This document shows, in pieces, positions 1-49,743 of a DNA stretch of 64,000 nucleotides (the stretch's first letter is position 1; the number at the start of each line of letters is the position of its first letter). The stretch is from Nemertoderma westbladi (taxonomy: Eukaryota; Animalia; Xenacoelomorpha): contig JAUCBJ010000491.1 of assembly GCA_032718475.1 (NCBI GenBank), positions 55,950 through 119,949 of the forward strand. The letters run 5' to 3'. A program made the translations under genes and the position numbers. The notes below the pieces were generated by a model. The model saw only the letters and a list, made by a program, of their open reading frames with translations. It ran no database searches and was not told the origin of the DNA.

Positions 1-1975
1 AAAATTCAGAAGTGCCGAAATGACCTTCATAAGGCGCAGAAAGAGTCCCGACTCAAACAGACTACAGCGGCCAAAAATTCAGTTAAGGCTGCATCTAGGT
101 CCCTGAACAGGCAGTACTCTGCTAATGTACAGGAGCTAATAAACCAACAGGTTGATGCCATCAATGATGCTGACGACAGCAGGCAATCATCCCAGGCATG
201 GAAATCGATCAATCTGCTTACTGGGCGGAAAAGCCAACCAACCACCAAGGTTAAGGCTGAATCACCAGCCGATCGCCTCAATGGTTGGAAAGCCCACTTT
301 GAAAAGCTCCTCAATAATGATAGGGTATTGCCTGATAACTTTATAGAAGTAAAAGTGTCTGAGTCTGTACTCCCAGATATTCCCATTGGCGATATTTCCT
401 TTGCAGAAGTGAAGGCTGCTGCAAAGAGCATTAAGACCAATCGTGCCAGTGGAGTAGATGGTGTTCCCCCTGAGGTCTTTAAAATACCTGAGTGTTTAAA
501 GCTCATCTATCCCATCATAGTAGACATGTACCGAACAACAAGAGTCCCACAAGAAATGAAAACAAATAAGTTGGTGCCAGTTCCCAAGAAGGGCAACCTA
601 ACACTCTATGGTTCTTTTCGGGGAATCTCATTGATCTCGATTGCTGCAAAGCTATACAATAGGATTCTATTAAATCGCATCAGGGATCCCATTGAGAGAC
701 TGCTCCGTGGAAATCAGAATGGGTTCCGTAAAGGTCGTGGGACCATGGAGCCCATTTTGGCACTTAGAAGGATAATTGAAGAGTTATCAAAAAAGAAAGA
801 CAGGCATCTGGCTGTTATCTTTGTTGACTTCTTCAAGGCCTTTGATTCAGTCTCTCGCTCACGTATGTTCAGCATACTTTCATTATATGGGATTCCTGAT
901 GAAATTATTGCAGCAATCAGATCAGTATACGATGGTTCGACAACATTTGTGTCTACTGTTGACGGTGACACAGAACCATTTGAAGTGTTATGGGGCGTCC
1001 TCCAAGGAGACACACTTGCACCATTCTTGTTCATTATTGTGGTTGACTATGTTCTACGCATGTCCTTAGATCATTATAATGATGATGGGGTGATGATAAC
1101 TCCACCTACTGGCTCCAGAAGTCGAGGAAATCCTGCCAAGTACCTAACTGATCTAGACTTTGCTGATGACTTAGGAGTACTATCAGAATAATTAGAGGGA
1201 GCCCAACGGCTCCTCAGCTCATTAGAACATGCTGCTTCTAGTGTTGGTCTTTTTATTAACTCCAGAAAGACCAAAATTCTGACAGTTAACTTTGAAAGTC
1301 CTCAGCAAGTCTCTGATCGGATGAGCATAAGCTCAAAGGATGGTATGCTTGAGCATGTGGACGACTTCTGTTACCTGGGATCATGGATCCGGAAGTCAGG
1401 TGAGGACCTTCGAATACGTAAGGGAAAGGCATGGGCAGCCTTGAATAGGCTTTCCAGGATTTGGAAGTCACCGAGAATTAATCGGAAACTTAAGGTCCGA
1501 TTATTTAGAGCAGCAGTAGTTCCAGTACTCCTCTACGGGAGTCCATGCTGGGCTCTAACTGCTGAGGACACCAAATCTCTGGATGGCACATTCACAAGAA
1601 TGCTACGCCGGGTTCATTGCGTCAAGTACAATGCACACATCTCCAACCAGACACTATATAACATTGGAGGTGTCTCATTGGTTCCCCCAAGTTGACACTA
1701 GAACAAAATCGCCTCCGCTTTGCAGGACATTGCTTTCGCCGTGAGGACCAGCCAGTGCATAATCTTGTACTTTGGCAGCCTCATGGAGTGAATAAGCATG
1801 GTGGACAGCCCATGACTTTCTTGAGACGCATCTTAAAGGACACTGGCCTTAAAGATGCGGATGATCTAGCAAATGTCATGGGTGATAGGGAGTTGTGGCG
1901 GTGCAATTTTGTTGACAAGCCGGCACAGCATTCTTAAAAATGCAGCTGCAATGCAGCATGCCGATCATAGTAGTA
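1..1975 (+). mobile_element. RTE-clade non-LTR retrotransposon, 3' part (RT domain + C-terminus + 3' UTR), disrupted
   Basis: Frame 1 is open from base 1 (..QSSQAWKSINLLTGRK..) into RT motifs RASGVDGVPPEVFK, PVPKKGN, FRGISLIS, NQNGFRKGRGT, FVDFFKAFDSV, GVLQGDTLAPFLF, LDFADD. In-frame TAA at 1189-1191, same frame resumes (GLFINSRKTKI, FCYLGSWI, VLLYGS), frameshift near 1690, then RLRFAGHCFR..VLWQP. Stop at 1935-1937, followed by a GCTGCAATGCAGC hairpin and a short TAGTAG tail. The 5' part lies outside the window. Confidence 0.92.
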
Positions 1976-4900
1976 TCGCCAACCTTCACTAACCTTCTGT
2001 CTCCACCCTTCACCAACCTTCTGTCTCCAACCTTCACTAACCTTCTGTCTCCAACTTTCACCAACCTTCTGTCTCCAACCTTCACTAACCTTCTGTCTCC
2101 AACCTTCACTAACCTTCTGTCTCCAACCTTCACTAACCTTCTGTCTCCAACCTTCACTAACCTTCTGTCTCCAACCTTCACCAACCTTCACTAACCTTCT
2201 ATCGCCAACCTTCACTAACCTTCTGTCTCCAACCTTCACCAACCTTCTGTATCCATCCTTCACTAACCTTCTGCCTCCAACCTTCACTAACCTTCTGTCT
2301 CCAACCTTCACTAACCTTCTATCTCCAACCTTCACTAACCTTCTATCGCCAACCTTCACTAACCTTCTGTCTCCAACCTTCACCAACCTTCTGTCTCCAA
2401 CCTTCACTAACCTTCTGTCTCCAACCTTCACTAACCTTCTATCTCCAACCTTCACTAACCTTCTATCGCCAACCTTCACTAACCTTCTGTCTCCAACCTT
2501 CACCAACCTTCAGTCTCCAACCTTCACTAACCTTCTGTCTCCAACTTTCACCAACCTTCACCAACCTTCTGTCTCCAACCTTCACTAACCTTCTGCCTCC
2601 AACCTTCACTAACCTTCTGTCTCCAACCTTCACTAACCTTCTGTCTCCAACCTTCACTAACCTTCTGTCTCCAACCTTCACCAACCTTCTGTCTCCAACC
2701 TTCACTAACCTTCTATCTTCAACCTTCACCAACCTTCACTAACCTTCTGTATCCAACCTTCACTAACCTTCTATCTCCAACCTTCACTAACCTTCTATCG
2801 CCAACCTTCACTAACCTTCTGTCTCCAACCTTCACTAACCTTCTGTCTCCAACCTTCACCAACCTTCTGTCTCCAACCTTCACTAACCTTCTGTCTCCAA
2901 CCTTCACCAACCTTCTGTCTCCAACCTTCACTAACCTTCTGTCTCCAACCTTCACTAACCTTCTGTCTCCAACCTTCACTAACCTTCTGTCTCCAACCTT
3001 CACCAACCTTCACTAACATTCTGCCTCCAACCTTCACTAACCTTCTATCTCCATCCTTCACTAACCTTCTGTCCCCAATCTTCACTAACCTTCTGTCTCC
3101 AACCTTCACTAACCTTCTGTCTCCAACCTTCACTAACCTTCTGTCTCCAACCTTCACTAACCTTCTGTCTCCAACCTTCACTAACCTTCTGTTTCCAACC
3201 TTCACTAACCTTCTGTCTCCAACCTTCACTAACCTTATGTTTCCAACCTTCACTAACCTTCTGTCTCCAACCTTCACTAACCTTCTGTCTCCAACCTTCA
3301 TCAACCTTCACTAACCTTCTGTTTCCAACCTTCACTAACCTTCTGTCCCCAATCTTCACTAACCTTCTGTCTCCAACCTTCACTAACCTTCTGTCTCCAA
3401 CCTTCACTAACCTTCTGTCTCCAACCTTCACTAACCTTCTGTTTCCAACCTTCACTAACCTTCTGTCTCCAACCTTCACTAACCTTCTGTTTCCAACCTT
3501 CACTAACCTTCTGTCTCCAACCTTCACTAACCTTCTGTCTCCAACCTTCACTAACCTTCTGTCTCCAACCTTCACTAACCTTCTGTCTCCAACCTTCACT
3601 AACCTTCTGTCTCCAACCTTCACTAACCTTCTGTCTCCAACCTTCACCAACCTTCACTAACCTTCTGTTTCCAACCTTCACTAACCTTCTATCGCCAACC
3701 TTCACTAACCTTCTGTCTCCAACCTTCACTAACCTTCTGTCTCCAACCTTCACTAACCTTCTGTCTCCAACCTTCACTAACCGTCTGTCTCCAACCTTCA
3801 CCAACCTTCACTAACCTTCTGTTTCCAACCTTCACTAACCTTCTGTCCCCAATCTTCACTAACCTTCTGTCTCCAACCTTCACTAACCTTCTGTCCCCAA
3901 TCTTCACTAACCTTCTGTCTCCAACCTTCACTAACCTTCTGTCTCCAACCTTCACTAACCTTCTGTTTCCAACCTTCACTAACCTTCTTTCTCCAACCTT
4001 CACTAACCTTCTGTCTCCAACCTTCACCAACCTTCACTAACCTTCTGTTTCCAACCTTCACTAACCTTCTGTCCCCAATCTTCACTAACCTTCTGTCTCC
4101 AACCTTCACTAACCTTCTGTCTCCAACCTTCACTAACCTTCTGTCTCCAACCTTCACTAACCTTCTGTTTCCAACCTTCACTAACCTTCTGTCTCCAACC
4201 TTCACTAACCTTCTGTTTCCAACCTTCACTAACCTTCTGTCACCAACCTTCACTAACCATCTGTCTCCAACCTTCACTAACCTTCTGTTTCCAACCTTCA
4301 CTAACCTTCTGTCCCCAATCTTCACTAACCTTCTGTCTCCAACCTTCACCAACCTTCACTAACCTTCTGTTTCCAACCTTCACTAACCTTCTGTCTCCAA
4401 CCTTCACTAACCTTCTGTCTCCAACCTTCACCAACCTTCACTAACCTTCTGTTTCCACACTTCACTAACCTTCTGTTTCCAACCTTCACTAACCTTCTGT
4501 CCCCAATCTTCACTAACCTTCTGTCTCCAACCTTCACCAACCTTCACTAACTTTCTGTTTCCAACCTTCACTAACCTTCTGTTTCCAACCTTCACTAACC
4601 TTCTGTCCCCAATCTTCACTAACCTTCTGTCTCCAACCTTCACCAACCTTCACTAACCTTCTGTTTCCAACCTTCAATAACCTTCTGTTTCCAACCTTCA
4701 CTAACCTTCTGTCCCCAATCTTCACTAACCTTCTGTCTCCAACCTTCACTAACCTTCTGTCTCCAACCTTCACTAACCTTCTGTCTCCAACCTTCACTAA
4801 CCTTCTGTCACCAACCTTCACTAACCTTCTGTCTCCAACCTTCACCAACCTTCACTAACCTTCTGTCTCCAACCTTCACCAACCTTCTGTCCCCAATCTT

Positions 4901-7900
4901 CACTAACCTTCTGTCTCCAACCTTCACTAACCTTCTGTATCCATCCTTCACTAACCTTCTGCCTCCAACCTTCACTAACCTTCTATCTCCATCCTTCACT
5001 AAACTTCTGTCCCCAATCTTCACTAACCTTCTGTCTCCAACCTTCACTAACCTTCTGTCTCCAACCTTCACTAACCTTCTGTCTCCAACCTTCACTAACC
5101 TTCTGTTTCCAACCTTCACTAACCTTCTGTCTCCAACCTTCACTAACCTTCTGTTTCCAACCTTCACTAACCTTCTGTCTCCAACCTTCACAAACCTTCT
5201 GTCTCCAACCTTCACCAACCTTCACTAATCTTCTGTTTCCAACCTTCACTAACCTTCTGTCTCCAACCTTCACTAACCTTCTGTCTCCAACCTTCACCAA
5301 CCTTCACTAACCTTCTGTTTCCAACCTTCACTAACCTTCTGTTTCCAACCTTCACTAACCTTCTGTCCCCAATCTTCACTAACCTTCTGTCTCCAACCTT
5401 AACCAACCTTCACTAACCTTCTGTTTCCAACCTTCACTAACCTTCTGTCTCCAACCTTCACCAACCTTCACTAACCTTCTGTCTCCAACCTTCACCAACC
5501 TTCACTAACCTTCTGTTTCCAACCTTCACTAACCTTCTGTCTCCAACCTTCACTAACCTTCTGTCCCCAATCTTCACTAACCTTCTGTCTCCAACCTTCA
5601 CTAACCTTCTGTCCCCAATCTTCACTAACCTTCTGTCTCCAACCTTCACTAACCTTCTGTCTCCAACCTTCACTAACCTTCTGTTTCCAACCTTCACTAA
5701 CCTTCTTTCTCCAACCTTCACTAACCTTCTGTCTCCAACCTTCACCAACCTTCACTAACCTTCTGTCTCCAACCTTCACCAACCTTCTGTCCCCAATCTT
5801 CACTAACCTTCTGTTTCCAACCTTCACTAACCTTCTGTCCCCAATCTTCACTAACCTTCTGTCTCCAACCTTCACTAACCTTCTGTCTCCAACCTTCACT
5901 AACCTTCTGTCTCCAACCTTCACTAACCTTCTGTTTCCAACCTTCACTAACCTTCTGTCTCCAACCTTCACTAACCTTCTGTTTCCAACCTTCACTAACC
6001 TTCTGTCACCAACCTTCACTAACCATCTGTCTCCAACCTTCACTAACCTTCTGTTTCCAACCTTCACTAACCTTCTGTCCCCAATCTTCACTAACCTTCT
6101 GTCTCCAACCTTCACCAACCTTCACTAACCTTCTGTTTCCAACCTTCACTAACCTTCTGTCTCCAACCTTCACTAACCTTCTGTCTCCAACCTTCACCAA
6201 CCTTCACTAACCTTCTGTTTCCACACTTCACTAACCTTCTGTTTCCAACCTTCACTAACCTTCTGTCCCCAATCTTCACTAACCTTCTGTCTCCAACCTT
6301 CACCAACCTTCACTAACCTTCTGTTTCCAACCTTCACTAACCTTCTGTTTCCAACCTTCACTAACCTTCTGTCCCCAATCTTCACTAACCTTCTGTCTCC
6401 AACCTTCACCAACCTTCACTAACCTTCTGTTTCCAACCTTCACTAACCTTCTGTTTCCAACCTTCACTAACCTTCTGTCCCCAATCTTCACTAACCTTCT
6501 GTCTCCAACCTTCACTAACCTTCTGTCTCCAACCTTGACTAACCTTCTGTCTCCAACCTTCACTAACCTTCTGTCACCAACCTTCACTAACCTTCTGTCT
6601 CCAACCTTCACCAACCTTCACCAACCTTCACTAACCTTCTGTCTCCAACCTTCACCAACCTTCTGTCCCCAATCTTCACTAACCTTCTGTCTCCAACCTT
6701 CACTAACCTTCTGTATCCATCCTTCACTAACCTTCTGCCTCCAACCTTCACTAACCTTCTATCTCCATCCTTCACTAAACTTCTGTCCCCAATCTTCACT
6801 AACCTTCTGTCTCCAACCTTCACTAACCTTCTGTCTCCAACCTTCACTAACCTTCTGTCTCCAACCTTCACTAACCTTCTGTTTCCAACCTTCACTAACC
6901 TTCTGTCTCCAACCTTCACTAACCTTCTGTTTCCAACCTTCACTAACCTTCTGTCTCCAACCTTCACAAACCTTCTGTCTCCAACCTTCACCAACCTTCA
7001 CTAACCTTCTGTTTCCAACCTTCACTAACCTTCTGTCTCCAACCTTCACTAACCTTCTGTCTCCAACCTTCACCAACCTTCACTAACCTTCTGTTTCCAA
7101 CCTTCACTAACCTTCTGTTTCCAACCTTCACTAACCTTCTGTCCCCAATCTTCACTAACCTTCTGTCTCCAACCTTCACCAACCTTCACTAACCTTCTGT
7201 TTCCAACCTTCACTAACCTTCTGTCTCCAACCTTCACCAACCTTCTGTCTCCAACCTTCACTAACCTTCTGTCTCCAACCTTCACCAAACTTCACTAACC
7301 TTCTGTTTCCAACCTTCACTAACCTTCTGTCCCCAATCTTCACTAACCATCTGTCTCCAACCTTCACTAACCTTCTGTTTCCAACCTTCACTAACCTTCT
7401 GTCCCCAATCTTCACTAACCTTCTGTCCCCAATCTTCACTAACCATCTGTCTCCAACCTTCACTAACCTTCTGTTTCCAACCTTCACTAACCTTCTGTCC
7501 CCAATCTTCACTAACCTTCTGTTTCCAACCTTCACTAACCTTCTGTCCCCAATCTTCACTAACCTTATGTTTCCAACCTTCACTAACCTTCTGTCCCCAA
7601 TCTTCACTAACCTTCTGTTTCCAACCTTCACTAACCTTCTGTCTCCAACCTTCACCAACCTTCACTAACCTTCTGTTTCCAACCTTCACTAACCTTCTGT
7701 CCCCAATCTTCACTAACCTTCTGTCTCCAACCTTCCCTAACCTTCTGTCTCCAACCTTCACTAACCTTCTGTCTCCAACCTTCACTAACCTTCTGTCACC
7801 AACCTTCACTAACCTTCTGTCTCCAACCTTCACTAACCTTCTGTCTCCAACCTTCACTAACCTTCTGTTTCCAACCTTCACTAACCTTCTTTCTCCAACC

Positions 7901-10900
7901 TTCACTAACCTTCTGTCTCCAACCTTCACCAACCTTCACTAACCTTCTGTTTCCAACCTTCACTAACCTTCTGTCCCCAATCTTCACTAACCTTCTGTCT
8001 CCAACCTTCACTAACCTTCTGTCTCCAACCTTCACTAACCTTCTGTCTCCAACCTTCACTAACCTTCTGTTTCCAACCTTCACTAACCTTCTGTCTCCAA
8101 CCTTCACTAACCTTCTGTTTCCAACCTTCACTAACCTTCTGTCACCAACCTTCACTAACCATCTGTCTCCAACCTTCACTAACCTTCTGTTTCCAACCTT
8201 CACTAACCTTCTGTCCCCAATCTTCACTAACCTTCTGTCTCCAACCTTCACCAACCTTCACTAACCTTCTGTTTCCAACCTTCACTAACCTTCTGTCTCC
8301 AACCTTCACTAACCTTCTGTCTCCAACCTTCACCAACCTTCACTAACCTTCTGTTTCCACACTTCACTAACCTTCTGTTTCCAACCTTCACTAACCTTCT
8401 GTCCCCAATCTTCACTAACCTTCTGTCTCCAACCTTCACCAACCTTCACTAACTTTCTGTTTCCAACCTTCACTAACCTTCTGTTTCCAACCTTCACTAA
8501 CCTTCTGTCCCCAATCTTCACTAACCTTCTGTCTCCAACCTTCACCAACCTTCACTAACCTTCTGTTTCCAACCTTCAATAACCTTCTGTTTCCAACCTT
8601 CACTAACCTTCTGTCCCCAATCTTCACTAACCTTCTGTCTCCAACCTTCACTAACCTTCTGTCTCCAACCTTCACTAACCTTCTGTCTCCAACCTTCACT
8701 AACCTTCTGTCACCAACCTTCACTAACCTTCTGTCTCCAACCTTCACCAACCTTCACTAACCTTCTGTCTCCAACCTTCACCAACCTTCTGTCCCCAATC
8801 TTCACTAACCTTCTGTCTCCAACCTTCACTAACCTTCTGTATCCATCCTTCACTAACCTTCTGCCTCCAACCTTCACTAACCTTCTATCTCCATCCTTCA
8901 CTAAACTTCTGTCCCCAATCTTCACTAACCTTCTGTCTCCAACCTTCACTAACCTTCTGTCTCCAACCTTCACTAACCTTCTGTCTCCAACCTTCACTAA
9001 CCTTCTGTTTCCAACCTTCACTAACCTTCTGTCTCCAACCTTCACTAACCTTCTGTTTCCAACCTTCACTAACCTTCTGTCTCCAACCTTCACAAACCTT
9101 CTGTCTCCAACCTTCACCAACCTTCACTAATCTTCTGTTTCCAACCTTCACTAACCTTCTGTCTCCAACCTTCACTAACCTTCTGTCTCCAACCTTCACC
9201 AACCTTCACTAACCTTCTGTTTCCAACCTTCACTAACCTTCTGTTTCCAACCTTCACTAACCTTCTGTCCCCAATCTTCACTAACCTTCTGTCTCCAACC
9301 TTAACCAACCTTCACTAACCTTCTGTTTCCAACCTTCACTAACCTTCTGTCTCCAACCTTCACCAACCTTCACTAACCTTCTGTTTCCAACCTTCACTAA
9401 CCTTCTGTCTCCAACCTTCACTAACCTTCTGTCTCCAACCTTCACCAACCTTCACTAACCTTCTGTTTCCAACCTTCACTAACCTTCTGTCTCCAACCTT
9501 CACTAACCTTCTGTCCCCAATCTTCACTAACCTTCTGTCTCCAACCTTCACTAACCTTCTGTCCCCAATCTTCACTAACCTTCTGTCTCCAACCTTCACT
9601 AACCTTCTGTCTCCAACCTTCACTAACCTTCTGTTTCCAACCTTCACTAACCTTCTTTCTCCAACCTTCACTAACCTTCTGTCTCCAACCTTCACCAACC
9701 TTCACTAACCTTCTGTCTCCAACCTTCACCAACCTTCTGTCCCCAATCTTCACTAACCTTCTGTTTCCAACCTTCACTAACCTTCTGTCCCCAATCTTCA
9801 CTAACCTTCTGTCTCCAACCTTCACTAACCTTCTGTCTCCAACCTTCACTAACCTTCTGTCTCCAACCTTCACTAACCTTCTGTTTCCAACCTTCACTAA
9901 CCTTCTGTCTCCAACCTTCACTAACCTTCTGTTTCCAACCTTCACTAACCTTCTGTCACCAACCTTCACTAACCATCTGTCTCCAACCTTCACTAACCTT
10001 CTGTTTCCAACCTTCACTAACCTTCTGTCCCCAATCTTCACTAACCTTCTGTCTCCAACCTTCACCAACCTTCACTAACCTTCTGTTTCCAACCTTCACT
10101 AACCTTCTGTCTCCAACCTTCACTAACCTTCTGTCTCCAACCTTCACCAACCTTCACTAACCTTCTGTTTCCACACTTCACTAACCTTCTGTTTCCAACC
10201 TTCACTAACCTTCTGTCCCCAATCTTCACTAACCTTCTGTCTCCAACCTTCACCAACCTTCACTAACCTTCTGTTTCCAACCTTCACTAACCTTCTGTTT
10301 CCAACCTTCACTAACCTTCTGTCCCCAATCTTCACTAACCTTCTGTCTCCAACCTTCACCAACCTTCACTAACCTTCTGTTTCCAACCTTCACTAACCTT
10401 CTGTTTCCAACCTTCACTAACCTTCTGTCCCCAATCTTCACTAACCTTCTGTCTCCAACCTTCACTAACCTTCTGTCTCCAACCTTGACTAACCTTCTGT
10501 CTCCAACCTTCACTAACCTTCTGTCACCAACCTTCACTAACCTTCTGTCTCCAACCTTCACCAACCTTCACCAACCTTCACTAACCTTCTGTCTCCAACC
10601 TTCACCAACCTTCTGTCCCCAATCTTCACTAACCTTCTGTCTCCAACCTTCACTAACCTTCTGTATCCATCCTTCACTAACCTTCTGCCTCCAACCTTCA
10701 CTAACCTTCTATCTCCATCCTTCACTAAACTTCTGTCCCCAATCTTCACTAACCTTCTGTCTCCAACCTTCACTAACCTTCTGTCTCCAACCTTCACTAA
10801 CCTTCTGTCTCCAACCTTCACTAACCTTCTGTTTCCAACCTTCACTAACCTTCTGTCTCCAACCTTCACTAACCTTCTGTTTCCAACCTTCACTAATCTT

Positions 10901-12600
10901 CTGTCTCCAACCTTCACAAACCTTCTGTCTCCAACCTTCACCAACCTTCACTAACCTTCTGTTTCCAACCTTCACTAACCTTCTGTCTCCAACCTTCACT
11001 AACCTTCTGTCTCCAACCTTCACCAACCTTCACTAACCTTCTGTTTCCAACCTTCACTAACCTTCTGTTTCCAACCTTCACTAACCTTCTGTCCCCAATC
11101 TTCACTAACCTTCTGTCTCCAACCTTCACCAACCTTCACTAACCTTCTGTTTCCAACCTTCACTAACCTTCTGTCTCCAACCTTCACCAACCTTCTGTCT
11201 CCAACCTTCACTAACCTTCTGTCTCCAACCTTCACCAAACTTCACTAACCTTCTGTTTCCAACCTTCACTAACCTTCTGTCCCCAATCTTCACTAACCAT
11301 CTGTCTCCAACCTTCACTAACCTTCTGTTTCCAACCTTCACTAACCTTCTGTCCCCAATCTTCACTAACCTTCTGTCCCCAATCTTCACTAACCATCTGT
11401 CTCCAACCTTCACTAACCTTCTGTTTCCAACCTTCACTAACCTTCTGTCCCCAATCTTCACTAACCTTCTGTTTCCAACCTTCACTAACCTTCTGTCCCC
11501 AATCTTCACTAACCTTATGTTTCCAACCTTCACTAACCTTCTGTCCCCAATCTTCACTAACCTTCTGTTTCCAACCTTCACTAACCTTCTGTCTCCAACC
11601 TTCACCAACCTTCACTAACCTTCTGTTTCCAACCTTCACTAACCTTCTGTCCCCAATCTTCACTAACCTTCTGTCTCCAACCTTCCCTAACCTTCTGTCT
11701 CCAACCTTCACTAACCTTCTGTCTCCAACCTTCACTAACCTTCTGTCACCAACCTTCACTAACCTTCTGTCTCCAACCTTCACCAACCTTCACTAACCTT
11801 CTGTCTCCAACCTTCACTAACCTTCTGTCTCCAACCTTCACTAACCTTCTGTCACCAACCTTCACTAACCTTCTGTCTCCAACCTTCACCAACCTTCACT
11901 AACCTTCTGTCTCCAACCTTCACCAACCTTCTGTCCCCAATCTTCACTAACCTTCTGTCTCCAACCTTCACTAACCTTCTGTATCCATCCTTCACTAACC
12001 TTCTGCCTCCAACCTTCACTAACCTTCTATCTCCATCCTTCACTAACCTTCTGTCCCCAATCTTCACTAACCTTCTGTCTCCAACCTTCACTAACCTTCT
12101 GTCTCCAACCTTCACTAACCTTCTGTCTCCAACCTTCACTAACCTTCTGTTTCCAACCTTCACTAACCTTCTGTCTCCAACCTTCACTAACCTTCTGTTT
12201 CCAACCTTCACTAACCTTCTGTCTCCAACCTTCACTAACCTTCTGTCTCCAACCTTCACCAACCTTCACTAACCTTCTGTTTCCAACCTTCACTAACCTT
12301 CTGTCTCCAACCTTCACTAACCTTCTGTCTCCAACCTTCACCAACCTTCACTAACCTTCTGTTTCCAACCTTCACTAACCTTCTGTCCCCAATCTTCACT
12401 AACCTTCTGTCTCCAACCTTCACTAACCTTCTATCCCCAACCTTCACTAACCTTCTGCCTCCAACCTTCACTAACCTTCTGTCTCCAACCTTCACTAACC
12501 TTCTGTCTCCAACCTTCACCAACCTTCACTAACCTTCTATCCCCAACCTTCACTAACTTTCTGCCTCCAACCTTCACTAACCTTCCGTCTCCAACCTTCT
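1974..12600 (-). repeat. 24-bp tandem array (plus strand CCAACCTTCACTAACCTTCTGTCT, about 420-440 units plus 10-bp partial units); unit = amplified exon-end/5' splice site
   Basis: Periodicity is directly visible. The minus-strand unit GAAGGTTGGAGACAGAAG|GTTAGT matches the end of exon 12582-12743 plus its donor. Confidence 0.97.
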
Positions 12601-12743
12601 ATCTGATTATTCAGCTCCAGGTTTCGAACCTCCGACCGCCTAAGTTTACTCGCTAACTCCAAGTGTTTCATCTCTAATCCATCGGATTTGCGTTGTAGCG
12701 AACTGTTGCTACGCAACAACTCGGAATTCTTATTTAAGGAATC
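12582..12743 (-). CDS. FYCO1: FYCO1-like exon (coiled coil; DSLNKNSELL..NNQIEGWRRK)
   Basis: Acceptor ttttag at 12744-12745; donor AAG|GTTAGT at 12581; 162 bp, phase 0/0. Confidence 0.82.
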
Positions 12744-21700: not shown

Positions 21701-24700
21701 TGTACTATTGTCTCTGCTTCCCTCTTACCCTTTCTGTACTATTATCTCTGCTTCCCTCTTACCTTTTCTGTACTATTATCTCTGCTTCCCTCTTACCTTT
21801 TCTGTACTATTATCTCTGCTTCCCTCTTACCTTTTCTGTACTATTATCTCTGCTTCCCTCTTACCTTTTCTGTACTATTGTCTCTGCTTCCTTCTTACCT
21901 TTTCTGTACTATTGTCTCTGCTTCCCTCTTACCTTTTCTGTACTATTGTCTCTGCTTCCCTCTTACCTTTTCTGTACTATTGTCTCTGCTTCCCTCTTAC
22001 CTTTACTGTACTATTGTCTCTGCTTCCCTCTTACCTTTACTGTACTATTGTCTCTGCTTCCCTCTTACCTTTACTGTACTATTGTCTCTGCTTCCCTCTT
22101 ACCTTTTCTGTACTATTGTCTCTGCTTCCCTCTTACCTTTTCGGTACTATTGTCTCTGCTTCCCTCTTACCCTTTCGGTACTATTATCTCTGCTTCCCTC
22201 TTACCCTTTCTGTACTATTATCTCTGCTTCCCTCTTACCTTTTCTGTACTATTGTCTCTGCTTCCCTCTTACCTTTACTGTACTATTGTCTCTGGTTCCC
22301 TCTTACCTTTACTGTACTATTGTCTCTGCTGCCCTCTTACCCTTTCTGTACTATTATCTCTGCTTCCCTCTTACCTTTTCTGTACTATTGTCTCTGCTTC
22401 CCTCTTACCTTTTCTGTACTATTGTCTCTGCTTCCCTCTTACCTTTTCTGTACTATTGTCTCTGCTTCCCTCTTACCTTTTCTGTACTATTGTCTCTGCT
22501 TCCCTCTTACCTTTTCTGTACTATTGTCTCTGCTTCCCTCTTACCTTTACTGTACTATTGTCTCTGCTTCCCTCTTACCTTTTCTGTACTATTGTCTCTG
22601 CTTCCCTCTTACCTTTTCGGTACTATTGTCTCTGCTTCCCTCTTACCCTTTCTGTACTATTATCTCTGCTTCCCTCTTACCCTTTCTGTACTATTATCTC
22701 TGCTTCCCTCTTACCCTTTCTGTACTATTATCTCTGCTTCCCTCTTACCTTTTCTGTACTATTGTCTCTGCTTCCCTCTTACCTTTTCTGTACTATTGTC
22801 TCTGCTTCCCTCTTACCTTTTCTGTACTATTGTCTCTGCTTCCCTCTTACCTTTTCTGTACTATTGTCTCTGCTTCCCTCTTACCTTTACTGTACTATTG
22901 TCTCTGCTTCCCTCTTACCTTTTCTGTACTATTGTCTCTGCTTCCCTCTTACCTTTTCTGTACTATTGTCTCTGCTTCCCTCTTACCTTTTCTGTACTAT
23001 TGTCTCTGCTTCCCTCTTACCTTTTCTGTACTATTGTCTCTGCTTCCCTCTTACCTTTTCTGTACTATTGTCTCTGCTTCCCTCTTACCTTTTCTGTACT
23101 ATTGTCTCTGCTTCCCTCTTACCTTTTCTGTACTATTGTCTCTGCTTCCCTCTTACCTTTTCTGTACTATTGTCTCTGCTTCCCTCTTACCTTTTCTGTA
23201 CTATTATCTCTGCTTCCCTCTTACCTTTTCTGTACTATTGTCTCTGCTTCCCTCTTACCTTTTCTGTACTATTGTCTCTGCTTCCCTCTTACCTTTTCGG
23301 TACTATTGTCTCTGCTTCCCTCTTACCTTTACTGTACTATTGTCTCTGCTTCCCTCTTACCTTTACTGTACTATTGTCTCTGCTTCCCTCTTACCTTTTC
23401 TGTACTATTGTCTCTGCTTCCCTCTTACCTTTACTGTACTATTGTCTCTGCTTCCCTCTTACCTTTTCGGTACTATTGCCTCTGCTTCCCTCTTACCTTT
23501 TCTGTACTATTGTCTCTGCTTCCCTCTTACCTTTTCTGTACTATTGTCTCTGCTTCCCTCTTACCTTTTCTGTACTATTGTCTCTGCTTCCCTCTTACCT
23601 TTTCGGTACTATTGTCTCTGCTTCCCTCTTACCTTTTCTGTACTATTGTCTCTGCTTCCCTCTTACCTTTTCTGTACTATTGTCTCTGCTTCCCTCTTAC
23701 CTTTTCGGTACTATTGTCTCTGCTTCCCTCTTACCTTTTCTGTACTATTGTCTCTGCTTCCCTCTTACCTTTACTGTACTATTGTCTCTGCTTCCCTCTT
23801 ACCTTTTCGGTACTATTGTCTCTGCTTCCCTCTTACCTTTTCTGTACTATTGTCTCTGCTTCCCTCTTACCTTTTCTGTACTATTGTCTCTGCTTCCCTC
23901 TTACCTTTTCTGTACTATTGTCTCTGCTTCCCTCTTACCTTTTCTGTACTATTGTCTCTGCTTCCCTCTTACCTTTTCTGTACTATTGTCTCTGCTTCCC
24001 TCTTACCTTTTCTGTACTATTGTCTCTGCTTCCCTCTTACCTTTTCTGTACTATATTGTCTCTGCTTCCCTCTTACCTTTTCTGTACTATTGTCTCTGCT
24101 TCCCTCTTACCTTTTCTGTACTATTGTCTCTGCTTCCCTCTTACCTTTACTGTACTATTGTCTCTGCTTCCCTCTTACCTTTACTGTACTATTGTCTCTG
24201 CTTCCCTCTTACCTTTTCTGTACTATTGTCTCTGCTTCCCTCTTACCTTTTCTGTACTATTGTCTCTGCTTCCCTCTTACCTTTTCTGTACTATTGTCTC
24301 TGCTTCCCTCTTACCTTTTCTGTACTATTGTCTCTGCTTCCCTCTTACCTTTTCTGTACTATTGTCTCTGCTTCCCTCTTACCTTTACTGTACTATTGTC
24401 TCTGCTTCCCTCTTACCTTTTCTGTACTATTGTCTCTGCTTCCCTCTTACCTTTTCTGTACTATTGTCTCTGCTTCCCTCTTACCCTTTCTGTACTATTG
24501 TCTCTGCTTCCCTCTTACCTTTACTGTACTATTGTCTCTGCTTCCCTCTTACCTTTTCTGTACTATTGTCTCTGCTTCCCTCTTACCTTTTCTGTACTAT
24601 TGTCTCTGCTTCCCTCTTACCTTTTCTGTACTATTGTCTCTGCTTCCCTCTTACCTTTTCTGTACTATTGTCTCTGCTATCCCGAAGACCTTTCATCTTC

Positions 24701-27700
24701 TCCAACTCTGCCTGGGTGGTTTCCAGCTCCAACTGAGTCTCTTGTAGAAGTCGACCTAAGTCTTCCATGTCCTTGGATAGATTGTAATCAGCTTCGTCTA
24801 AACGCATAGCCTAACAAATACAACATCATTCATAAAAGTTTATGACCTAAGAGGATATCGGTGCTACTGCGCAATGTAAAAAACTTTTTTTGTAAAAAAC
24901 GTAAAAATTTTCTACGTGATTATTTTTTCTCTTTCCATAAATAATTTTGACATCGGGGGTGTTTTGCATTGCACAAGCTGTATGTAAACAATACACATAA
25001 TGTGAGAATAATAATATAAGATAAATGATAATATGAGAATAATAAAGAATAATACATAATGTGACAAAACACCGTAAGTCTGTCAGTTACTGTAAGCGGA
25101 TCCAATTCCCTGTACTACCCAGCGGAAAATAGGGAAAGTGGCATTTTACCAATTACAATTGGCTAGGTGACATTACCAATATAATGTCACCTAACAACCA
25201 AAGAGGCAATATACATTGCCAGCCACAAAGAGAGATGAGAGGCTACACGCCATCTCAGGGGGACAAAGGAAGCTAGCACGTGGGTATCAGAGAACAGGGA
25301 GTGCCAAGGGAGGGAAGAATAGATTAGCCAATGGTGGGGCAGATTACCATCTGATTGGGATGCATCCATTGGCCAGGCCAAGTTCCAATATTCCATATGT
25401 GTTAGTAATATAACCGTTGCCTTTATTATCTGTTGTTCAGTTGGTTTGTGTAGAGTTGTGGAAGCAAGACAGTTTAGACCGTCGTCATTAACCGTGCTAT
25501 TATTGTATTCTGACATTACGAACAACTGCCACTAAAAACTCAGTTATTCTATCGGCCTCCGGCCTTTTAGATACCACAAGCCTTTCAGCAGCCAACGGAC
25601 GCGGCGACGCGTACTATCCCACAGCAAACACACCGGTCGGGATTCCCTCGCCAACTCGGGGATCCCGTCACAGTTACGGTGTGTTTACATTGTAGATTGA
25701 ATACAATAACATATTTTTTTTATAAAATATTAAATATAATTAATTAGAGATACTAAATTAATTACAACTAAATTGCCTTCTGTGAAACAATAACGTTTTC
25801 CGAGGTGTTTAATAATTTAAATTTAAGATAATTCATAAATAAAGGCAGACTGGGGTTGTGTACAGGAATTTTCTTACCATTAAATTATTTAATGTCATTA
25901 TTAACTAATAATACAAAAATCATAACCAGAGTGAGTTGTAGTCTCTGGAGTGAGCTATAGTACCAGAGTATGCTATATGGCATAATATTAATTAGTGTTA
26001 TCTTCATGCTATTATAAAACAATAAAAAAACAATATGTTAGGCCAGTTGACAATAATCAGTCAATTATCTATTCATATTGATAAGTTTTATAACTCAAAA
26101 ATCATCGAGAATGTCAGATAATATTTAGTAAATTTCGGAACCTTCGATGAAATAAGAGGTAGACTCAATCGGCGGGTTTCGCTTCTCCGCAGTTGGAGAG
26201 TCAAGTCGTCCAACTCAGTAGCTAACTCCTCGTTCTGTACGGATAATTCGTAATTGATTTGCTCCAAGTGAACCACTTTCTCCCTCAAAGCTGAATTCTA
26301 TAAAATACGAAAAAATAAAGGTAACTTACGAGTTGAGGAGCCAACAGTAGTTGGAGTATGCGCAGCTGGCACAACCCGGATTCGAACCCTGGATGTTGTA
26401 GCTGGAAGCACAGTGGCTAACAACTCCATCTCACAGTAGTATAGTAATACAAATAATAAATCGTACATATATTGGTGATCAATCGGTTATTGTAGTAAAA
26501 CTTGCGGTGCGGGATAACTTACGCAATCATGTGTATGATTGGAGAGACTGGCGTTGCTAGCCCGTGTTCCATCTTCTGGCTTTTCTCTCGATGACTCATC
26601 ACCGCTGTCTCCCATAGACATGGAACTCTCAGGTCGGCTATCCTTATCCCCGGTGTCCTGCAAACAATATATTATATGAAGCATACAGGGAAAATAAATC
26701 CTTCCTTTTATTTCTAACTACATAGAAGGATAACCTCACCCGCCCTACTGGTTGGCCCCACTCACTTTACCTAATCACGTCGCACATTCCACATCCACGC
26801 CCCCCCCCCCCTGCCCCCCTCCATGGCTCGCCCCACTCACCTCGTTCAAGGCCTCCCCAACTCCCACCTCCATGGCTCGCCCCAATGACCTCGTTCAAGG
26901 CCTCCCCACTCCCACCTCCATGGCTCGCCCCACTCACCTCGTTCAAGGCCTCCTCCACTCCCACCTCCCTGGGCTCCCCGAGTAGCTGCGCCAACCCCCC
27001 AGGGAATTCTCTCTGTTGAATGGCCGTCAAATCCTTGAAACGAACCAATGGGAGGCCGCCGTCCAATGAAAGCGCCCGTTGCGAGCGGCCTCGATGCCCG
27101 GTGAGTTTCTCGGTACTGCAACCATCCGCTGGGATGCGCTCCCTACTGGCTCGGATATCCGCGGACCAAGTCCGGATAAGGGAGGGAACAGCGCAGGAGT
27201 TACGGCGTTGCGAGGTCATCGACCCCGGGAGCAGTATCCCCGGCGTCAACGACCGCGGGGTTAGTGACCCCGGTATAACCCCACCCAGCACAGCTTGCAG
27301 TCTCTGGGACACGCGACAGTCCGCATTCCCGCTGTCGGACAGACTGGGTCCGGATTGAACTCTTGCGAGAGTCTTACTGCACTGGGCTGCTGCTCCTGGA
27401 ACCGACAACGCTACGCTAGGGTTCGTTTCGGTCTCGTACTTCTCAAGTTTGACCAGCGCGTGTTGCAACTGCGACAAAAGATCCTAGATAAATATAATAT
27501 TAAGCTTTATTAACGAATAGCAATAAATGTAAAAGCTATAAGCGAAATCAAAGTCAGTCAAATGCTGAAAAATCACAAAAAAACATATTGATAATTATTT
27601 TCCATTCGTAAATTTATACGATAAGTATAATAATAATAGTGTAGCCACAGTCCTGTGATAAAATGATTCGTCAGAAAATTTATCCAGTAGAAAAATATAA

Positions 27701-30700
27701 ATTAATATAAAATATCATTATTTTATTTATTCTACTAATAATACTTCAGCAGTATGATAAGAGTGACATAAAGTATTCCAAACTCCTATCACGCTTACAC
27801 TGCCACACGGAAAATTTGATTCAATTCAAATCACATCGCAGCTGAAACACGAGACAACCAATCACATCGCAGCTGAAACACGAGACAATCAATCACATCG
27901 CTGCTGAAATACGAGACAATCAATCACATCGCAACTGAAACACGAGACAACCAATCACATCGCAACTGAAACAGGAGACAACCAATCACATCGTAACTGA
28001 AACAGGAGACAACCAATCACATCGCAACTGAAACACGAGACAACCAATCACATCGCAGCTGAAACACGAGACAACCAATCACATCGCAGATGAAACACGA
28101 GACAACCAATCACATCGTAACTGAAACAGGAAACAACCAATCACATCGCAGCTGAAACACGAGACAACCAATCACATCGCAACTGAAACACGAGACAACC
28201 AATCACATCGCAGCTGAAACACGAGACAACCAATCACATCGCAGCTGAAACACGAGACAACCAATCACATCGCAACTGAAACACGAGACAACCAATAACA
28301 TCGCAGCTGAAACAGGCGACAACCAATCACATCGCAGATGAAACACGAGACAACCAATCACATCGCAGATGAAACACGCGACAACCAATCACATCGCAGA
28401 TGAAACACTAGACAACCAATCACATCGCAGCTGAAACACGCGACAACCAATCACATCGCAGCTGAAACACGAGACAACCAATCACATCGCAACTGAAACA
28501 CGCGACAACCAATCACATTGCAACTGAAACACGAGACAACCAATCACATCGCAGATGAAACACGCGACAACCAATCACAGCGTACCTGTTGGGCAGCCTC
28601 CTGTCCCTCGAACTCCGACTTAAACTGCTCGACAACCCGAACCAACTCTTCCTCCCTGTCGTCCGCTTGTATTGCGAGTCGCTCCACGTCTACCGACAGC
28701 CGCGCTATCTGGGACTGCAGCTCCAACTCTCGTGACCGACTGTCAGACAGTTCGGTAGTTCGTTCAACTATACGCTTATCCATCGTACTCACTAAAATCT
28801 GCGAAAGTAAAAGATATATTGATAATAAGGTATTGGAAAAAAAACTCTTTCTCGTTTCTATTGAACAAAATTCACTGACTCTGTCTGAGCGTATTGCGTT
28901 TAACACGAGATGGGCATGTTTTTCAGCACGAGCGAAGAGATGGTTAAATACGTAGCAGCTACTCAATACATCAGCACGAGCGAAGAGATGGTTAAATACG
29001 TGGCAGCTACTCAATACATGAGCACGAGCGAAGAGATGGTTAAATACATAGCAGCTACTCAATACACCAGCACGAGCGAAGAGATAGTTAAATACGTGGC
29101 AGCTACTCAATACATCAGCACGAGCGAAGAGATGGTTAAATACGTAGCAGCTACTCAATACATCAGCACGAGCGAAGAGATGGTTAAATACGTAGCAGCT
29201 ACTCAATACATCAGCACGAGCGAATAGATGGTTAAATACGTGGCAGCTACTCAATACATCAGCACGAGCGAAGAGATGGTTAAATACGTGGCAGCTACTC
29301 AATACATCAGCACGAGCGAAGAGATGGTTAAATACGTAGCAGCTACTCAATACATCAGCACGAGCGAAGAGATGGTTAAATACGTAGCAGCTACTCAATA
29401 CATCAGCACGAGCGAAGAGATGGTTAAATACGTAGCAGCTACTCAATACATCAGCACGAGCGAATAGATGGTTAAATACGTGGCAGCTACTCAATACATC
29501 AGCACGAGCGAAGAGATGGTTAAATACGTGGCAGCTACTCAATACATCAGCACGAGCGAAGAGATGGTTAAATACGTGGCAGCTACTCAATACATCAGCA
29601 CGAGCGAAGAGATGGTTAAATACGTAGCAGCTACTCAATACATCAGCACGAGCGAAGATATGGTTAAATACGTAGCAGCTACTCAATACATCAGCACGAG
29701 CGAATAGATGGTTAAATACGTGGCAGCTACTCAATACATCAGCACGAGCGAAGAGATGGTTAAATACGTAGCAGCTACTCAATACATCAGCACGAGCGAA
29801 GAGATGGTTAAATACGTAGCAGCTACTCAATACATCAGCACGAGCGAAGAGATGGTTAAATACGTAGCAGCTACTCAATACATCAGCACGAGCGAATAGA
29901 TGGTTAAATACGTGGCAGCTACTCAATACATCAGCACGAGCGAAGAGATGGTTAAATACGTGGCAGCTACTCAATACATCAGCACGAGCGAAGAGATGGT
30001 TAAATACGTGGCAGCTACTCAATACATCAGCACGAGCGAAGAGATGGTTAAATACGTAGCAGCTACTCAATACATCAGCACGAGCGAAGAGATGGTTAAA
30101 TACGTAGCAGCTACTCAATACATCAGCACGAGCGAATAGATGGTTAAATACGTGGCAGCTACTCAATACATCAGCACGAGCGAAGAGATGGTTAAATACG
30201 TGGCAGCTACTCAATACATCAGCACGAGCGAAGAGATGGTTAAATACGTAGCAGCTACTCAATACATCAGCACGAGCGAAGAGATGGTTAAATATGTAGC
30301 AGCTACTCAATACATCAGCACGAGCGAAGAGATGGTTAAATACGTAGCAGCTACTCAATACATCAGCACGAGCGAAGAGATGGTTAAATACGTGGCAGCT
30401 ACTCAATACATCAGCACGAGCGAAGAGATGGTTAAATACGTAGCAGCTACTCAATACATCAGCACGAGCGAAGAGATGGTTAAATACGTGGCAGCTACTC
30501 AATACATGAGCACGAGCGAAGAGATGGTTAAATACGTAGCAGCTACTCAATACATCAGCACGAGCGAAGAGATGGTTAAATACGTGGCAGCTACTCAATA
30601 CATCAGCACGAGCGAAGAGATGGTTAAATACGTGGCAGCTACTCAATACATGAGCACGAGCGAAGAGATGGTTAAATACGTAGCAGCTACTCAATACATC

Positions 30701-33700
30701 AGCACGAGCGAAGAGATGGTTAAATACGTAGCAGCTACTCAATACATCAGCACGAGCGAAGAGATGGTTAAATACGTGGCAGCTACTCAATACATCAGCA
30801 CGAGCGAAGAGATGGTTAAATACGTAGCAGCTACTCAATACATCAGCACGAGCGAAGAGATGGTTAAATACGTGGCAGCTACTCAATACATCAGCACGAG
30901 CGAAGAGATGGTTAAATACATAGCAGCTACTCAATACATCAGCACGAGCGAAGAGATGGTTAAATACGTGGCAGCTACTCAATACATCAGCACGAGCGAA
31001 GAGATGGTTAAATACGTGGCAGCTACTCAATACATGAGCACGAGCGAAGAGATGGTTAAATACGTAGCAGCTACTCAATACATCAGCACGAGCGAAGAGA
31101 TGGTTAAATACGTGGCAGCTACTCAATACATCAGCACGAGCGAAGAGATGGTTAAATACGTAGCAGCTACTCAATACATCAGCACGAGCGAAGAGATGGT
31201 TAAATACGTAGCAGCTACTCAATACATCAGCACGAGCGAAGAGATGGTTAAATACGTAGCAGCTACTCAATACATCAGCACGAGCGAAGAGATGGTTAAA
31301 TACGTGGCAGCTACTCAATACATCAGCACGAGCGAAGAGATGGTTAAATACGTGGCAGCTACTCAATACATGAGCACGAGCGAAGAGATGGTTAAATACA
31401 TAGCAGCTACTCAATACATCAGCACGAGCGAAGAGATGGTTAAATACGTGGCAGCTACTCAATACATCAGCACGAGCGAAGAGATGGTTAAATACGTAGC
31501 AGCTACTCAATACATCAGCACGAGCGAAGAGATGGTTAAATACGTAGCAGCTACTCAATACATCAGCACGAGCGAAGAGATGGTTAAATACGTGGCAGCT
31601 ACTCAATACATCAGCACGAGCGAAGAGATGGTTAAATACGTAGCAGCTACTCAATACATCAGCACGAGCGAAGAGATGGTTAAATACGTAGCAGCTACTC
31701 AATACATCAGCACGAGCGAAGAGATGGTTAAATACGTGGCAGCTACTCAATACATCAGCACGAGCGAAGAGATGGTTAAATACGTGGCAGCTACTCAATA
31801 CATCAGCACGAGCGAAGAGATGGTTAAATACGTGGCAGCTACTCAATACATGAGCACGAGCGAAGAGATGGTTAAATACGTAGCAGCGACTCAATACACC
31901 AGCACGAGCGAAGAGATGGTTAAATACGTGGCAGCTACTCAATACATCAGCACGAGCGAAGAGATGGTTAAATACGTGGCAGCTACTCAATACAGGGCGG
32001 GCGGAATATCTAAAATTCGTTCCTCGCAACGTTCTGATAATGGCGTTTTATAACTGAATTTACATTAAAAATTAGAAATTAATGGCAATGGTATTTGGTG
32101 GAAGTAAGTCGATCACTCTTAACAAAAGAAAAATAACATCGGGACAAGCCGTAAAAAAGTTTACTTTACTTTATTACACAGTCAATGAATAATTTATACC
32201 TCCAACTCTTTTATTTGGAAATTTAGCTGCGAAACCCGCTGCTCCAACTCCTGATTGTCGAGTTTCAATTTAGCAACTTCGTCATGTTGGTATTCGCGAC
32301 CAGATACCGTCTCCATGGCGATAGCGGGGTGAACAGGGGTCGTCACTTCTATCGATTCGGTAACTTCGTGAGGAACTTCAGCTATAGCCTAATGGAAATA
32401 AACAAGGAAATAAACAAGGAAATAAATATTAGAGAAGGAAATAAATATTACAGAAGGAAATAAACAAGAAAATAAATATTAGAGAAGAAGGAAATAAACA
32501 TGGAAATAAACATTGGAGAAGAAGGAAATAAACAAGGAAATAAACATTGGAGAAGAAGGAAATAAACAGGGAAATAAACATTGGAGAAGGAAATAAACAA
32601 GGAAATAAATATTAGAGAAGGAAATAAATATTACAGAAGGAAATAAATATTACAGAAGGAAATAAATATTACAGAAGGAAATAAATATTACAGAAGGAAA
32701 TAAATAAGAAAATAAATATTAGAGAAGGAAATAAACAAGGAAATAAATATTAGAGAAGGAAATAAACAAGGAAATAAATATTAGAGAAGGAAATAAATAT
32801 TACAGAAGGAAATAAATATTACAGAAGGAAATTAATATTACAGAAGGAAATAAACAAGAAAATAAATATTAGAGAAGGAAATAAACAAGGAAATAAATAT
32901 TAGAGAAGGAAATAAACAAGGAAATAAATATTACAGAAGGAAATAAACAAGGAAATAAATATTAGAGAAGAAGGAAATAAATATTACAGAAGGAAATAAA
33001 TATTAGAGAAGGAAATAAATATTACAGAAGGAAATAAATATTACAGAAGGAAATAAATATTACAGAAGGAAATAAACAAGAAAATAAATATTAGAGAAGA
33101 AGGAAATAAATATTACAGAAGGAAATAAATATTACAGAAGGAAATAAATATTACAGAAGGAAATAAATATTACAGAAGGAAATAAATATTACAGAAGGAA
33201 ATAAATATTACAGAAGGAAATAAACAAGAAAATAAATATTAGAGAAGAAGGAAATAAACATTGGAGAATATTTACAGGAAATTATGGAGCTGCTGTGGAT
33301 CCATCCTAAAGTCTAAACTTTAAAGTAATTAATTTGTATAATAATGCCTTAGGCGTCAGTTATAGTCACTAAATGAGAGACAGCGGATATTTTACTGGTC
33401 TATTTAGTCCTGTAAGTGAAATGACAAAAACTATTAACTTCAAGATTGCAATCTTTCACTTTATAGGACTACTACAGTGCGATGTGTTTGTACGTAATAT
33501 AGAGATGAGAACTGTAATATAATAGACAAAAAGTTGTGCATTATTCATCATGTTTTCCCAAAGGAGCGCACAAAGAGTGGCGCAGAGTTGCGCCGTGCGT
33601 AATCTCTTTAAATCAGTCATTCAAAAAACAAAAGTTAAAAAGGTCTTTCTTTAACTAATTTTGTGAAAAATTAGTAAAAAAGTCATTTTTTAACTAATTA

Positions 33701-49741: not shown

Positions 49742-49743
49742 TT

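What the first reader, a model, noticed from the sequence alone, without database searches (positions are those of the whole stretch)
1974..33268. Splice-site-anchored satellite arrays: exon/intron junctions of one gene serially amplified into giant introns
Seen: five unrelated tandem arrays each begin at a splice site of the FYCO1-like gene. In three (24 bp x about 430, 34 bp x about 240, 48 bp x about 3) the unit is the last 18-30 exonic nt plus the 5' splice site, so the pre-mRNA carries hundreds of back-to-back donor copies. A 31-bp array starts about 5 nt after a donor, and a 19/12-bp array multiplies the acceptor pyrimidine tract. About 20 kb of intron is made this way. Each donor array shows a short exon/intron near-repeat at its seed. 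Inference: either a mutational process biased to splice junctions (for example transcription- or splicing-coupled R-loop slippage), or selection that only tolerates junction-spanning duplications because the first donor preserves the mRNA. Possible consequences are U1 snRNP loading or sponging, protection from premature polyadenylation, or alternative 5' splice site/NMD regulation. I do not recall this being described as a recurrent gene-wide pattern.
Basis: partly seen in the sequence, partly recalled or inferred. Interest (0 to 1): 0.88.

Follow-up and report, generated by a model that had tools for sequence, protein, structure and literature searches.

The report
Huge splice-donor mirage repeats in FYCO1
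In an animal FYCO1-like gene, three exon ends and their splice signals have been copied in tandem into the next intron, two of them hundreds of times, yet the one assembled RNA sample uses the first, genuine signal, so this is an unusually large example of a known and likely harmless repeat type.

Summary
A minus-strand FYCO1-like gene (RUN match E 1e-10) carries five arrays at splice sites, 20.6 kb in all. Three units copy an exon end plus its donor (24 bp x447, 34 bp x240, 48/49 bp x3.4). One array starts 6 nt after a donor and one ends 5 nt before an acceptor exon. Spliced contigs from one run use the first donor at all three donor arrays. DNA runs of two samples show strongly raised depth over the two large arrays. 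The three donor arrays sit at the three most purine-rich of 12 exon ends (post hoc, P 0.005). The layout is known: amphioxus 'mirages' (PMC3087553, PMC3902484) and human F7/CBS/LMNB2 VNTRs, where the first donor dominates (PMC1557585). This scan also reported it in several other genomes. Only the scale (372 identical donors in one intron) stands out. No evidence of function; no genome-wide test was possible.

The parts
1979..12599 (-). 24-bp donor-spanning array (18 exonic + 6 intronic nt) with 10-nt half-units; 372 AAG|GTTAGT copies; second copy has a -1 G>A change
   Evidence: raised DNA depth
12582..12743 (-). exon e9; its donor is the first copy of the 24-bp array and is the one used
   Evidence: X4 contig leaves at 12582 for an exon not found in the window
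13146..13222 (-). exon e8, no array
   Evidence: joints, CT..AC
14171..14285 (-). exon e7, no array
16501..24683 (-). 34-bp donor-spanning array, 240 units, 239 with G|GTAAG; in-frame stop at codon 8 of the read-through
   Evidence: raised DNA depth
24655..24810 (-). exon e6; first donor used
   Evidence: loose ends join e6 (with its unique upstream flank) to e7
26142..26297 (-). exon e5, no array
   Evidence: joints
26523..26657 (-). exon e4, no array
   Evidence: joints
26806..26972 (-). 48/49-bp G-rich donor-spanning array, 3.4 copies here, possibly longer in other samples
26938..27483 (-). exon e3; first donor used
   Evidence: joint 26656-26937
27829..28579 (-). 31-bp array x24 starting 6 nt after the e2 donor; the donor is not copied
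   Evidence: contigs of X2 and X3 go back 62 nt
28586..28798 (-). exon e2; donor supported by RNA, acceptor inferred
   Evidence: loose end
28923..31994 (-). 48-bp array x64 in mid-intron, not at a splice site (counter-example)
32200..32388 (-). exon e1, inferred from frame and contig length
32394..33268 (-). 19/12-bp pyrimidine-tract array with no AG and 12 CTRAY motifs, making an 899-nt AG-free zone before the e1 acceptor
36984..37221 (-). RUN-region exon R2
37727..37934 (-). RUN-domain exon R1, FYCO1 homologue
40537..41641 (-). 74-bp array x15 in mid-intron (counter-example)
44129..44263 (-). RUN-domain exon R0

Best explanation
These are 'mirage' minisatellites: short stretches at exon edges were duplicated in place, likely by slippage between local near-repeats, and likely grew by unequal exchange into arrays that are probably neutral, while the assembled mRNA is spliced at the first, genuine donor. 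Shown: the anatomy, first-donor use in one RNA sample, an open 776-codon frame, multi-copy DNA in two samples, and that no intact downstream donor copy gives an in-frame, stop-free extension. Inferred: birth by slippage; growth by unequal crossing-over or conversion (nested block repeats up to 1,581 nt); an excess at junctions because several ancestral introns were short (148-351 nt without their array) and because purine-rich, self-similar exon ends next to an AG|GT donor seed repeats easily; and a filter that keeps only layouts leaving the mRNA intact (first donor upstream of all copies; acceptor array without AG). First-donor choice likely follows the upstream-first rule shown for human F7, with nonsense-mediated decay hiding any slips.
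For: Spliced X4 contigs use the first donor at 3 of 3 donor arrays and give no depth inside the 24-bp array. The 12 modelled exons give no stop in 776 codons. Depth over the 24-bp array is 6854 vs 21.7 (X1) and 15204 vs 30.4 (X2), near the 447 copies seen, so the unit appears locus-specific; of the 8 array units searched, only the 53-bp unit outside the gene matched elsewhere in the window. Seed near-repeats are visible at the 24-, 31-, 34- and 49-bp arrays. Downstream intact donors giving an in-frame, stop-free product: 0 of 371, 0 of 221, 0 of 1. The three donor arrays occupy the three most purine-rich of 12 exon ends (0.77 each in the last 30 nt; P 0.0045). Same layout and normal splicing reported in amphioxus and human genes.
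Against: The short-intron null weakens but does not remove the excess (P 0.005-0.05 for 200-400 nt). The purine result is post hoc, one of eight related tests (P 0.0045-0.023), and overlaps the copied part; the 30 nt upstream of it are 0.60-0.70 purine, not exceptional. The 8 array-free donors hold no more near-repeat seeds than 300 random intron points (8-10 of 12 vs mode 8-9), so junctions are not generally seed-rich. The 31-bp array is not purine-rich (0.42). Neutrality is assumed, not shown. RNA evidence is contigs of one run, which drop rare forms.
Confidence: 0.62

Rival explanations
1. A transcription- or splicing-coupled mutational process (R-loop or G-quadruplex on the non-template strand at the 5' splice site) seeds and expands repeats at donors.
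For: All three donor arrays are purine- and G-rich on the sense strand (purine 0.73-0.82, GC skew +0.57 to +0.83); 3 donor-spanning arrays against 0.20 expected, P 7e-4 under uniform placement.
Against: Only the 49-bp array passes a G4Hunter mean of 1 (1.22; the 24- and 34-bp arrays score 0.68 and 0.48). The acceptor array has the opposite skew (-0.61). Coiled-coil codons are purine-rich anyway. Not tested directly.
Confidence: 0.15
2. Chance: a repeat-rich genome with short ancestral introns puts many arrays near a splice site with no sequence bias.
For: Three host introns are 148-351 nt without their array; with 200-nt introns 2.4 of 7 are expected and P is 0.051; the window was chosen for showing the pattern; 2 of 7 arrays are mid-intron.
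Against: Conditional on each array's present intron P is 4.6e-4; the arrays fall on the three most purine-rich exon ends.
Confidence: 0.13
3. The arrays are functional: hundreds of U1 sites protect a long intron from premature cleavage, load or sequester U1, or tune FYCO1 through alternative donors coupled to decay.
For: Donors are intact in most units (239 of 240 keep G|GTAAG; 372 AAG|GTTAGT); no AATAAA or ATTAAA on the sense strand of any of 8 arrays; the second copy of the in-frame 24-bp array carries a rare donor-weakening change also present in the X1 single-copy contig.
Against: Young homogenised arrays keep any motif; the long introns are long because of the arrays; edge units diverge anyway (PMC3087553); no downstream-donor form in X4 contigs; a weakened second copy suggests selection against its use, not for it.
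Confidence: 0.07
4. The arrays, or most of their length, are assembly artefacts.
For: A block of about 3 kb is repeated almost exactly 3.9 kb apart inside the 24-bp array; no X1 or X3 contig shows the window's base at 26887 in the 49-bp array; no laid piece spans an array.
Against: Three DNA runs of two samples show depth far above single-copy level on the 24- and 34-bp units, and contigs run from unique sequence into the arrays or loop back by 49 or 62 nt. Exact lengths remain open; existence does not.
Confidence: 0.03

Closest known systems
Amphioxus 'mirage' minisatellites (Adh3, troponin C, globins BflGb6 and BflGb9, PGBD5); PMC3087553 (passages, section 16, reference lines) and PMC3902484 (passages)
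   Same: Tandem units spanning an exon-intron boundary, many keeping the splice signal; normal splicing; more than one in a gene (PGBD5 has two); unit lengths of 10-160 bp cover those seen here; edge units differ from the core.
   Different: Copy numbers in the passages read are 2-7 for globins and PGBD5 (Adh3 numbers not seen; PMC117041 not held), against 240 and about 440 here. The animal here is unidentified: its RUN exon is at most 47% identical to any FYCO1-like hit. Two of the five arrays abut a site without copying it.
Human exon/intron-boundary VNTRs: F7 IVS7 (37 bp), CBS IVS13, 6-16, LMNB2, PDGF; PMC1557585 (abstract, passages, discussion)
   Same: The donor is reiterated as pseudo-sites; the most upstream site is used (F7, LMNB2, PDGF). 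A change in the second repeat that blocks its use is reported for CBS (title in the reference list only) and has a parallel in the 24-bp array.
   Different: 5-25 copies and one array per gene in the passages read; CBS and 6-16 also use the next pseudo-sites, which contigs here do not show.
Intron gain by tandem duplication of an AG|GT proto-splice site (Rogers model; as cited in PMC3087553)
   Same: Tandem duplication of sequence holding AG|GT.
   Different: Each closed intron here has its own unique acceptor and non-array sequence; the arrays enlarge existing introns and do not create them.
Satellite-filled giant introns of Drosophila Y-linked genes (recalled, no call)
   Same: Introns inflated by tandem repeats.
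   Different: Those are megabase-sized and made of simple satellites not derived from the gene's junctions; here 10-13 kb.

Membership tests
Mirage / junction-spanning minisatellite | Tandem unit spans an exon-intron boundary of the host gene | tested here: met
   24-, 34- and 48/49-bp arrays reach 18, 29 and 35 nt into the exon; boundaries from spliced contigs
Mirage / junction-spanning minisatellite (31-bp and 19/12-bp arrays) | Tandem unit spans an exon-intron boundary | tested here: not met
   The 31-bp array starts 6 nt after the donor; the 19/12-bp array ends 5 nt before the exon and has no AG. They are junction-adjacent arrays.
Mirage / junction-spanning minisatellite | Many units keep the splice signal | tested here: met
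   372 AAG|GTTAGT; 239 of 240 G|GTAAG; 2 of 3 GAG|GTGAGT
Mirage / junction-spanning minisatellite | Regular splicing is preserved, first donor used | tested here: met
   X4 contigs, 3 of 3 donor arrays; contig level only, one run
Mirage / junction-spanning minisatellite | Length instability between alleles or cells | tested here: inconclusive
   Depth ratios differ between runs, but also between X2 and X3 of one sample; depth is no copy number
Mirage / junction-spanning minisatellite | Homogenised core with divergent edge units | tested here: met
   146 of 240 and 176 of 418 units identical to the consensus; first, second and last units differ
Intron gain by tandem duplication | Donor and acceptor of the intron both come from the repeated unit | tested here: not met
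   The e6-e7 and e3-e4 introns end in unique acceptors 2215 and 148 nt beyond the array; the e9 intron's acceptor lies outside the window
Satellite-filled giant introns (Drosophila Y loops) | Megabase size, simple satellites (recalled) | tested here: not met
   Introns of 10.4 kb and over 12.6 kb
FYCO1 | N-terminal RUN domain closest to FYCO1 | tested here: met
   7bqi E 1e-10, the only PDB hit; named top hits include FYCO1 of limpet and oyster; three exons collinear with homologues
FYCO1 | C-terminal FYVE and GOLD domains (recalled) | not testable with these tools
   The gene runs off the window's low end; no genome is held

The most novel reading that the evidence does not exclude
In this lineage transcribed, purine-rich 5' splice junctions are true mutational hotspots for minisatellite birth, and donor-bearing units are the ones that can run to 10 kb because every copy adds a U1 site that keeps the growing intron from being cleaved early: splice signals driving their own amplification and intron growth genome-wide.
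Probability: 0.12. Interest if true: 0.68.

Novelty: new member of a known kind. Interest (0 to 1): 0.27.

Why it matters
As it stands it is an extreme natural test of 5' splice-site choice: one donor is picked ahead of 371 identical copies spread over 10 kb, more than ten times the largest count in the passages I read (25). It also offers a handle on a question the amphioxus paper calls unclear, how mirages arise: the link to purine-rich exon ends is testable in any assembled genome. Practically, such arrays mislead gene prediction and read mapping. It does not show a new kind of element or a function.

Tried and rejected
No whole genome is held, so the genome-wide enrichment test could not be run; the scan holds no other notes on this genome or on look-alikes of the RUN exon. 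The run search listed no holder on record as RNA; X4, listed as 'DNA?', gave spliced contigs and is treated as RNA. Protein searches with exon e3 (longer proteins) and the tropomodulin-like exon found nothing; the organism stays unidentified beyond 'animal'. Five multi-stretch or short hits were read as possible mirages in other FYCO1 genes; four are unrelated repetitive proteins and one a RUN fragment. Rejected: the 24-bp array as an in-frame coding repeat (stop at codon 15, frame-shifting half-units, RNA leaves at the first donor); a 30-nt exon at 33276-33305 making the 19/12-bp array a whole intron (in-frame stop; contig length leaves no room); the 48-bp array as coding despite a 1167-codon open frame (no room in the contig). 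The AG-free acceptor array is suggestive only: 24% of 14,852 31-nt intron windows also lack AG. The LINE-like frame was not scanned against Pfam. Paper searches. In the listings of 17, 23, 31, 44 and 49 I saw no report of kilobase-scale donor arrays or of a genome-wide enrichment test, but the library lacks most subscription papers and PMC117041. Passages of PMC10078293 and PMC2206037 held nothing relevant; one search was seen as a listing only. No supplements were read; those of PMC3087553 and PMC3902484 hold mirage alignments that may bear on copy numbers.
Full report
Gene. The window holds a minus-strand gene of at least 12 exons from 44263 to 12582 that runs off the low end. Its RUN exon matches human FYCO1 (7bqi, E 1e-10, the only PDB hit). 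Named top hits among 64 include FYCO1 of limpet and oyster, at 42-47% identity, and three exons are collinear with homologues. The 12 exons give 776 codons without a stop. The C-terminal domains lie outside the window and no genome is held. The organism is an unidentified animal.

Arrays. TRF finds the five arrays named: 24 bp x447 (1979-12599), 34 bp x240 (16501-24683), 49 bp x3.4 (26806-26972), 31 bp x24 (27829-28579) and 19/12 bp (32394-33268), 20,597 nt in all. The three donor arrays reach 18, 29 and 35 nt into their exon. They hold 372 AAG|GTTAGT, 239 G|GTAAG in 240 units, and 2 GAG|GTGAGT. The 31-bp array starts 6 nt after a donor and does not copy it. The 19/12-bp array has no AG in 875 nt, giving an AG-free zone of 899 nt against 17-91 nt at the nine other acceptors examined.

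Splicing. Run X4 is listed as 'DNA?' but its contigs skip introns at CT..AC in five joints (three, two), so I treat it as RNA. A 2007-nt contig (depth 355) joins e2, e3, e4, e5, e6 and e7 and uses the first donor at 26938 and 24655. The loose end behind e7 carries the unique exon flank of e6, not array sequence. A 1454-nt contig (depth 329) leaves e9 at the first donor, 12582, for an exon not found in the window, and X4 has no depth inside the 24-bp array. The modelled exons R0-e6 (1976 nt) plus 28 plus 3 equal 2007, indirect support for the unlaid acceptor at 32388 and for no extra exon. Limits: one run, contigs only, rare forms dropped.

Are the arrays real? Over the 24-bp array summed depth is 6854 vs 21.7 in X1, 15204 vs 30.4 in X2 and 1516 in X3. 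Over the start of the 34-bp array it is 2156, 705 and 121 against roughly 19-30, 30 and 5-7 in single-copy flanks. Contigs loop back by 49 nt (X3) and 62 nt (X2, X3). This is two samples, one of which may be the source of the window, and depth is no copy number. Lengths are therefore open: the 24-bp array has exact internal repeats of 1,581 and 1,486 nt about 3.9 kb apart, and the 49-bp array shows depth 336, 53 and 553 and a base at 26887 that no X1 or X3 contig shares.

More than chance? Five of 7 arrays lie across or within 10 nt of a splice site. Uniform placement over 15,263 nt of non-array intron expects 0.49 (P 2.7e-5). Conditional on each array's own intron, with 400 nt assumed for the last, it expects 1.19 (P 4.6e-4). 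If all introns were 200, 300 or 400 nt when the arrays were born, P is 0.051, 0.013 or 0.0046. The window was picked for this pattern, so these values overstate the case. A filter that spares junction-spanning duplications cannot by itself make an excess, since mid-intron arrays survive too.

Mechanism. Each seed shows a local near-repeat. The three donor arrays sit at the three most purine-rich of 12 exon ends (P 0.0045 for 30, 40 and 50 nt; 0.009 for 20 nt; G-minus-C 0.014-0.023). Against this: the test is post hoc, the sequence upstream of the copied part is ordinary (0.60-0.70), and the 8 array-free donors have no more seeds than random intron points. Only the 49-bp array looks G-quadruplex-prone, and the acceptor array has the opposite skew. 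No intact downstream donor gives an in-frame, stop-free product (0 of 371, 221 and 1). In the in-frame 24-bp array the second copy has A at -1, a position changed in 4 of 418 units, and the single-copy X1 contig agrees with the window there; a stop precedes the third copy. My reading: slippage at purine-rich, self-similar exon edges in short introns, growth by unequal exchange, survival because the first donor wins and slips would be degraded. Birth, growth, decay and neutrality are inferred.

Known relatives. PMC1557585 (abstract and passages; discussion) describes the human F7 37-bp VNTR spanning the exon 7 donor, lists 6-16, CBS, LMNB2 and PDGF as like cases with up to 25 pseudo-sites, and shows that the most upstream site is chosen. 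PMC3087553 (passages and section 16) and PMC3902484 (passages) describe amphioxus 'mirages' in Adh3, troponin C, globins and PGBD5, the last with two in one gene, call them possibly general in cephalochordates, and report normal splicing and an unclear origin. The original Adh3 paper is not held. Earlier notes of this scan report the same pattern in other genomes, three of them as multi-intron patterns; I did not check their DNA. The three donor arrays meet the tested defining features of mirages; the other two are junction-adjacent arrays.

Verdict. A real, RNA-supported and very large example of a known kind. The copy numbers exceed those in the passages I read by about tenfold, and the purine-rich-seed link is a testable lead on how mirages form. 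There is no evidence of function. Interest 0.27.

Noticed in passing
window 1-1978 (+): LINE-like reverse-transcriptase frame (motifs recognised from memory, not scanned), broken by a stop at 1189-1191 and a frame change near 1662-1695; its 3' end abuts the 24-bp array, and related pieces lie at 49019-50108, 53690-53725 and 58898-58938.
   Followed up: partly
window 33736-35864: Harbinger-like transposon in the R2-e1 intron: DDE_Tnp_4 transposase on + at 33736-34824 (E 5e-37) facing open frames on - at about 35112-35840 that may be its second gene.
   Followed up: partly
window 14258-14420 and beyond: An X4 contig of 338 nt at depth 27 (mRNA contigs 329-355) runs from exon e7 into the upstream intron: unspliced RNA, another acceptor or another start downstream of the 34-bp array.
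   Followed up: no
window 26141-26136 (-): The e5 donor AAG|GTTCCG matches only 4 of 9 consensus positions yet is the one used.
   Followed up: partly
window 28544-32047 (-) and 30140-32053 (+): The 48-bp mid-intron array gives long open frames on both strands (1167 and 637 codons); the minus one is in frame with exon e2 and the array carries 55 CTRAY motifs. No room for it in the X4 contig.
   Followed up: partly
window 60553-61278 (-): Tropomodulin-like exon with a leucine-rich repeat (weak Pfam hits; no homologue found).
   Followed up: partly
window 63012-63302, 44359-44631, 55088-56109: A 53-bp array whose unit also occurs singly in dispersed repeats elsewhere in the window, so it likely grew from a mobile element.
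   Followed up: partly
window 40537-41641: The 74-bp mid-intron array is built of 22-bp self-complementary-looking subunits, with a short inverted segment near 40540-40640.
   Followed up: no
window 25044-25709 and 13308-14165: High-copy interspersed repeats inside introns (depth up to several hundred times the single-copy level in three DNA runs); they inflate the non-array intron length used in the null.
   Followed up: partly
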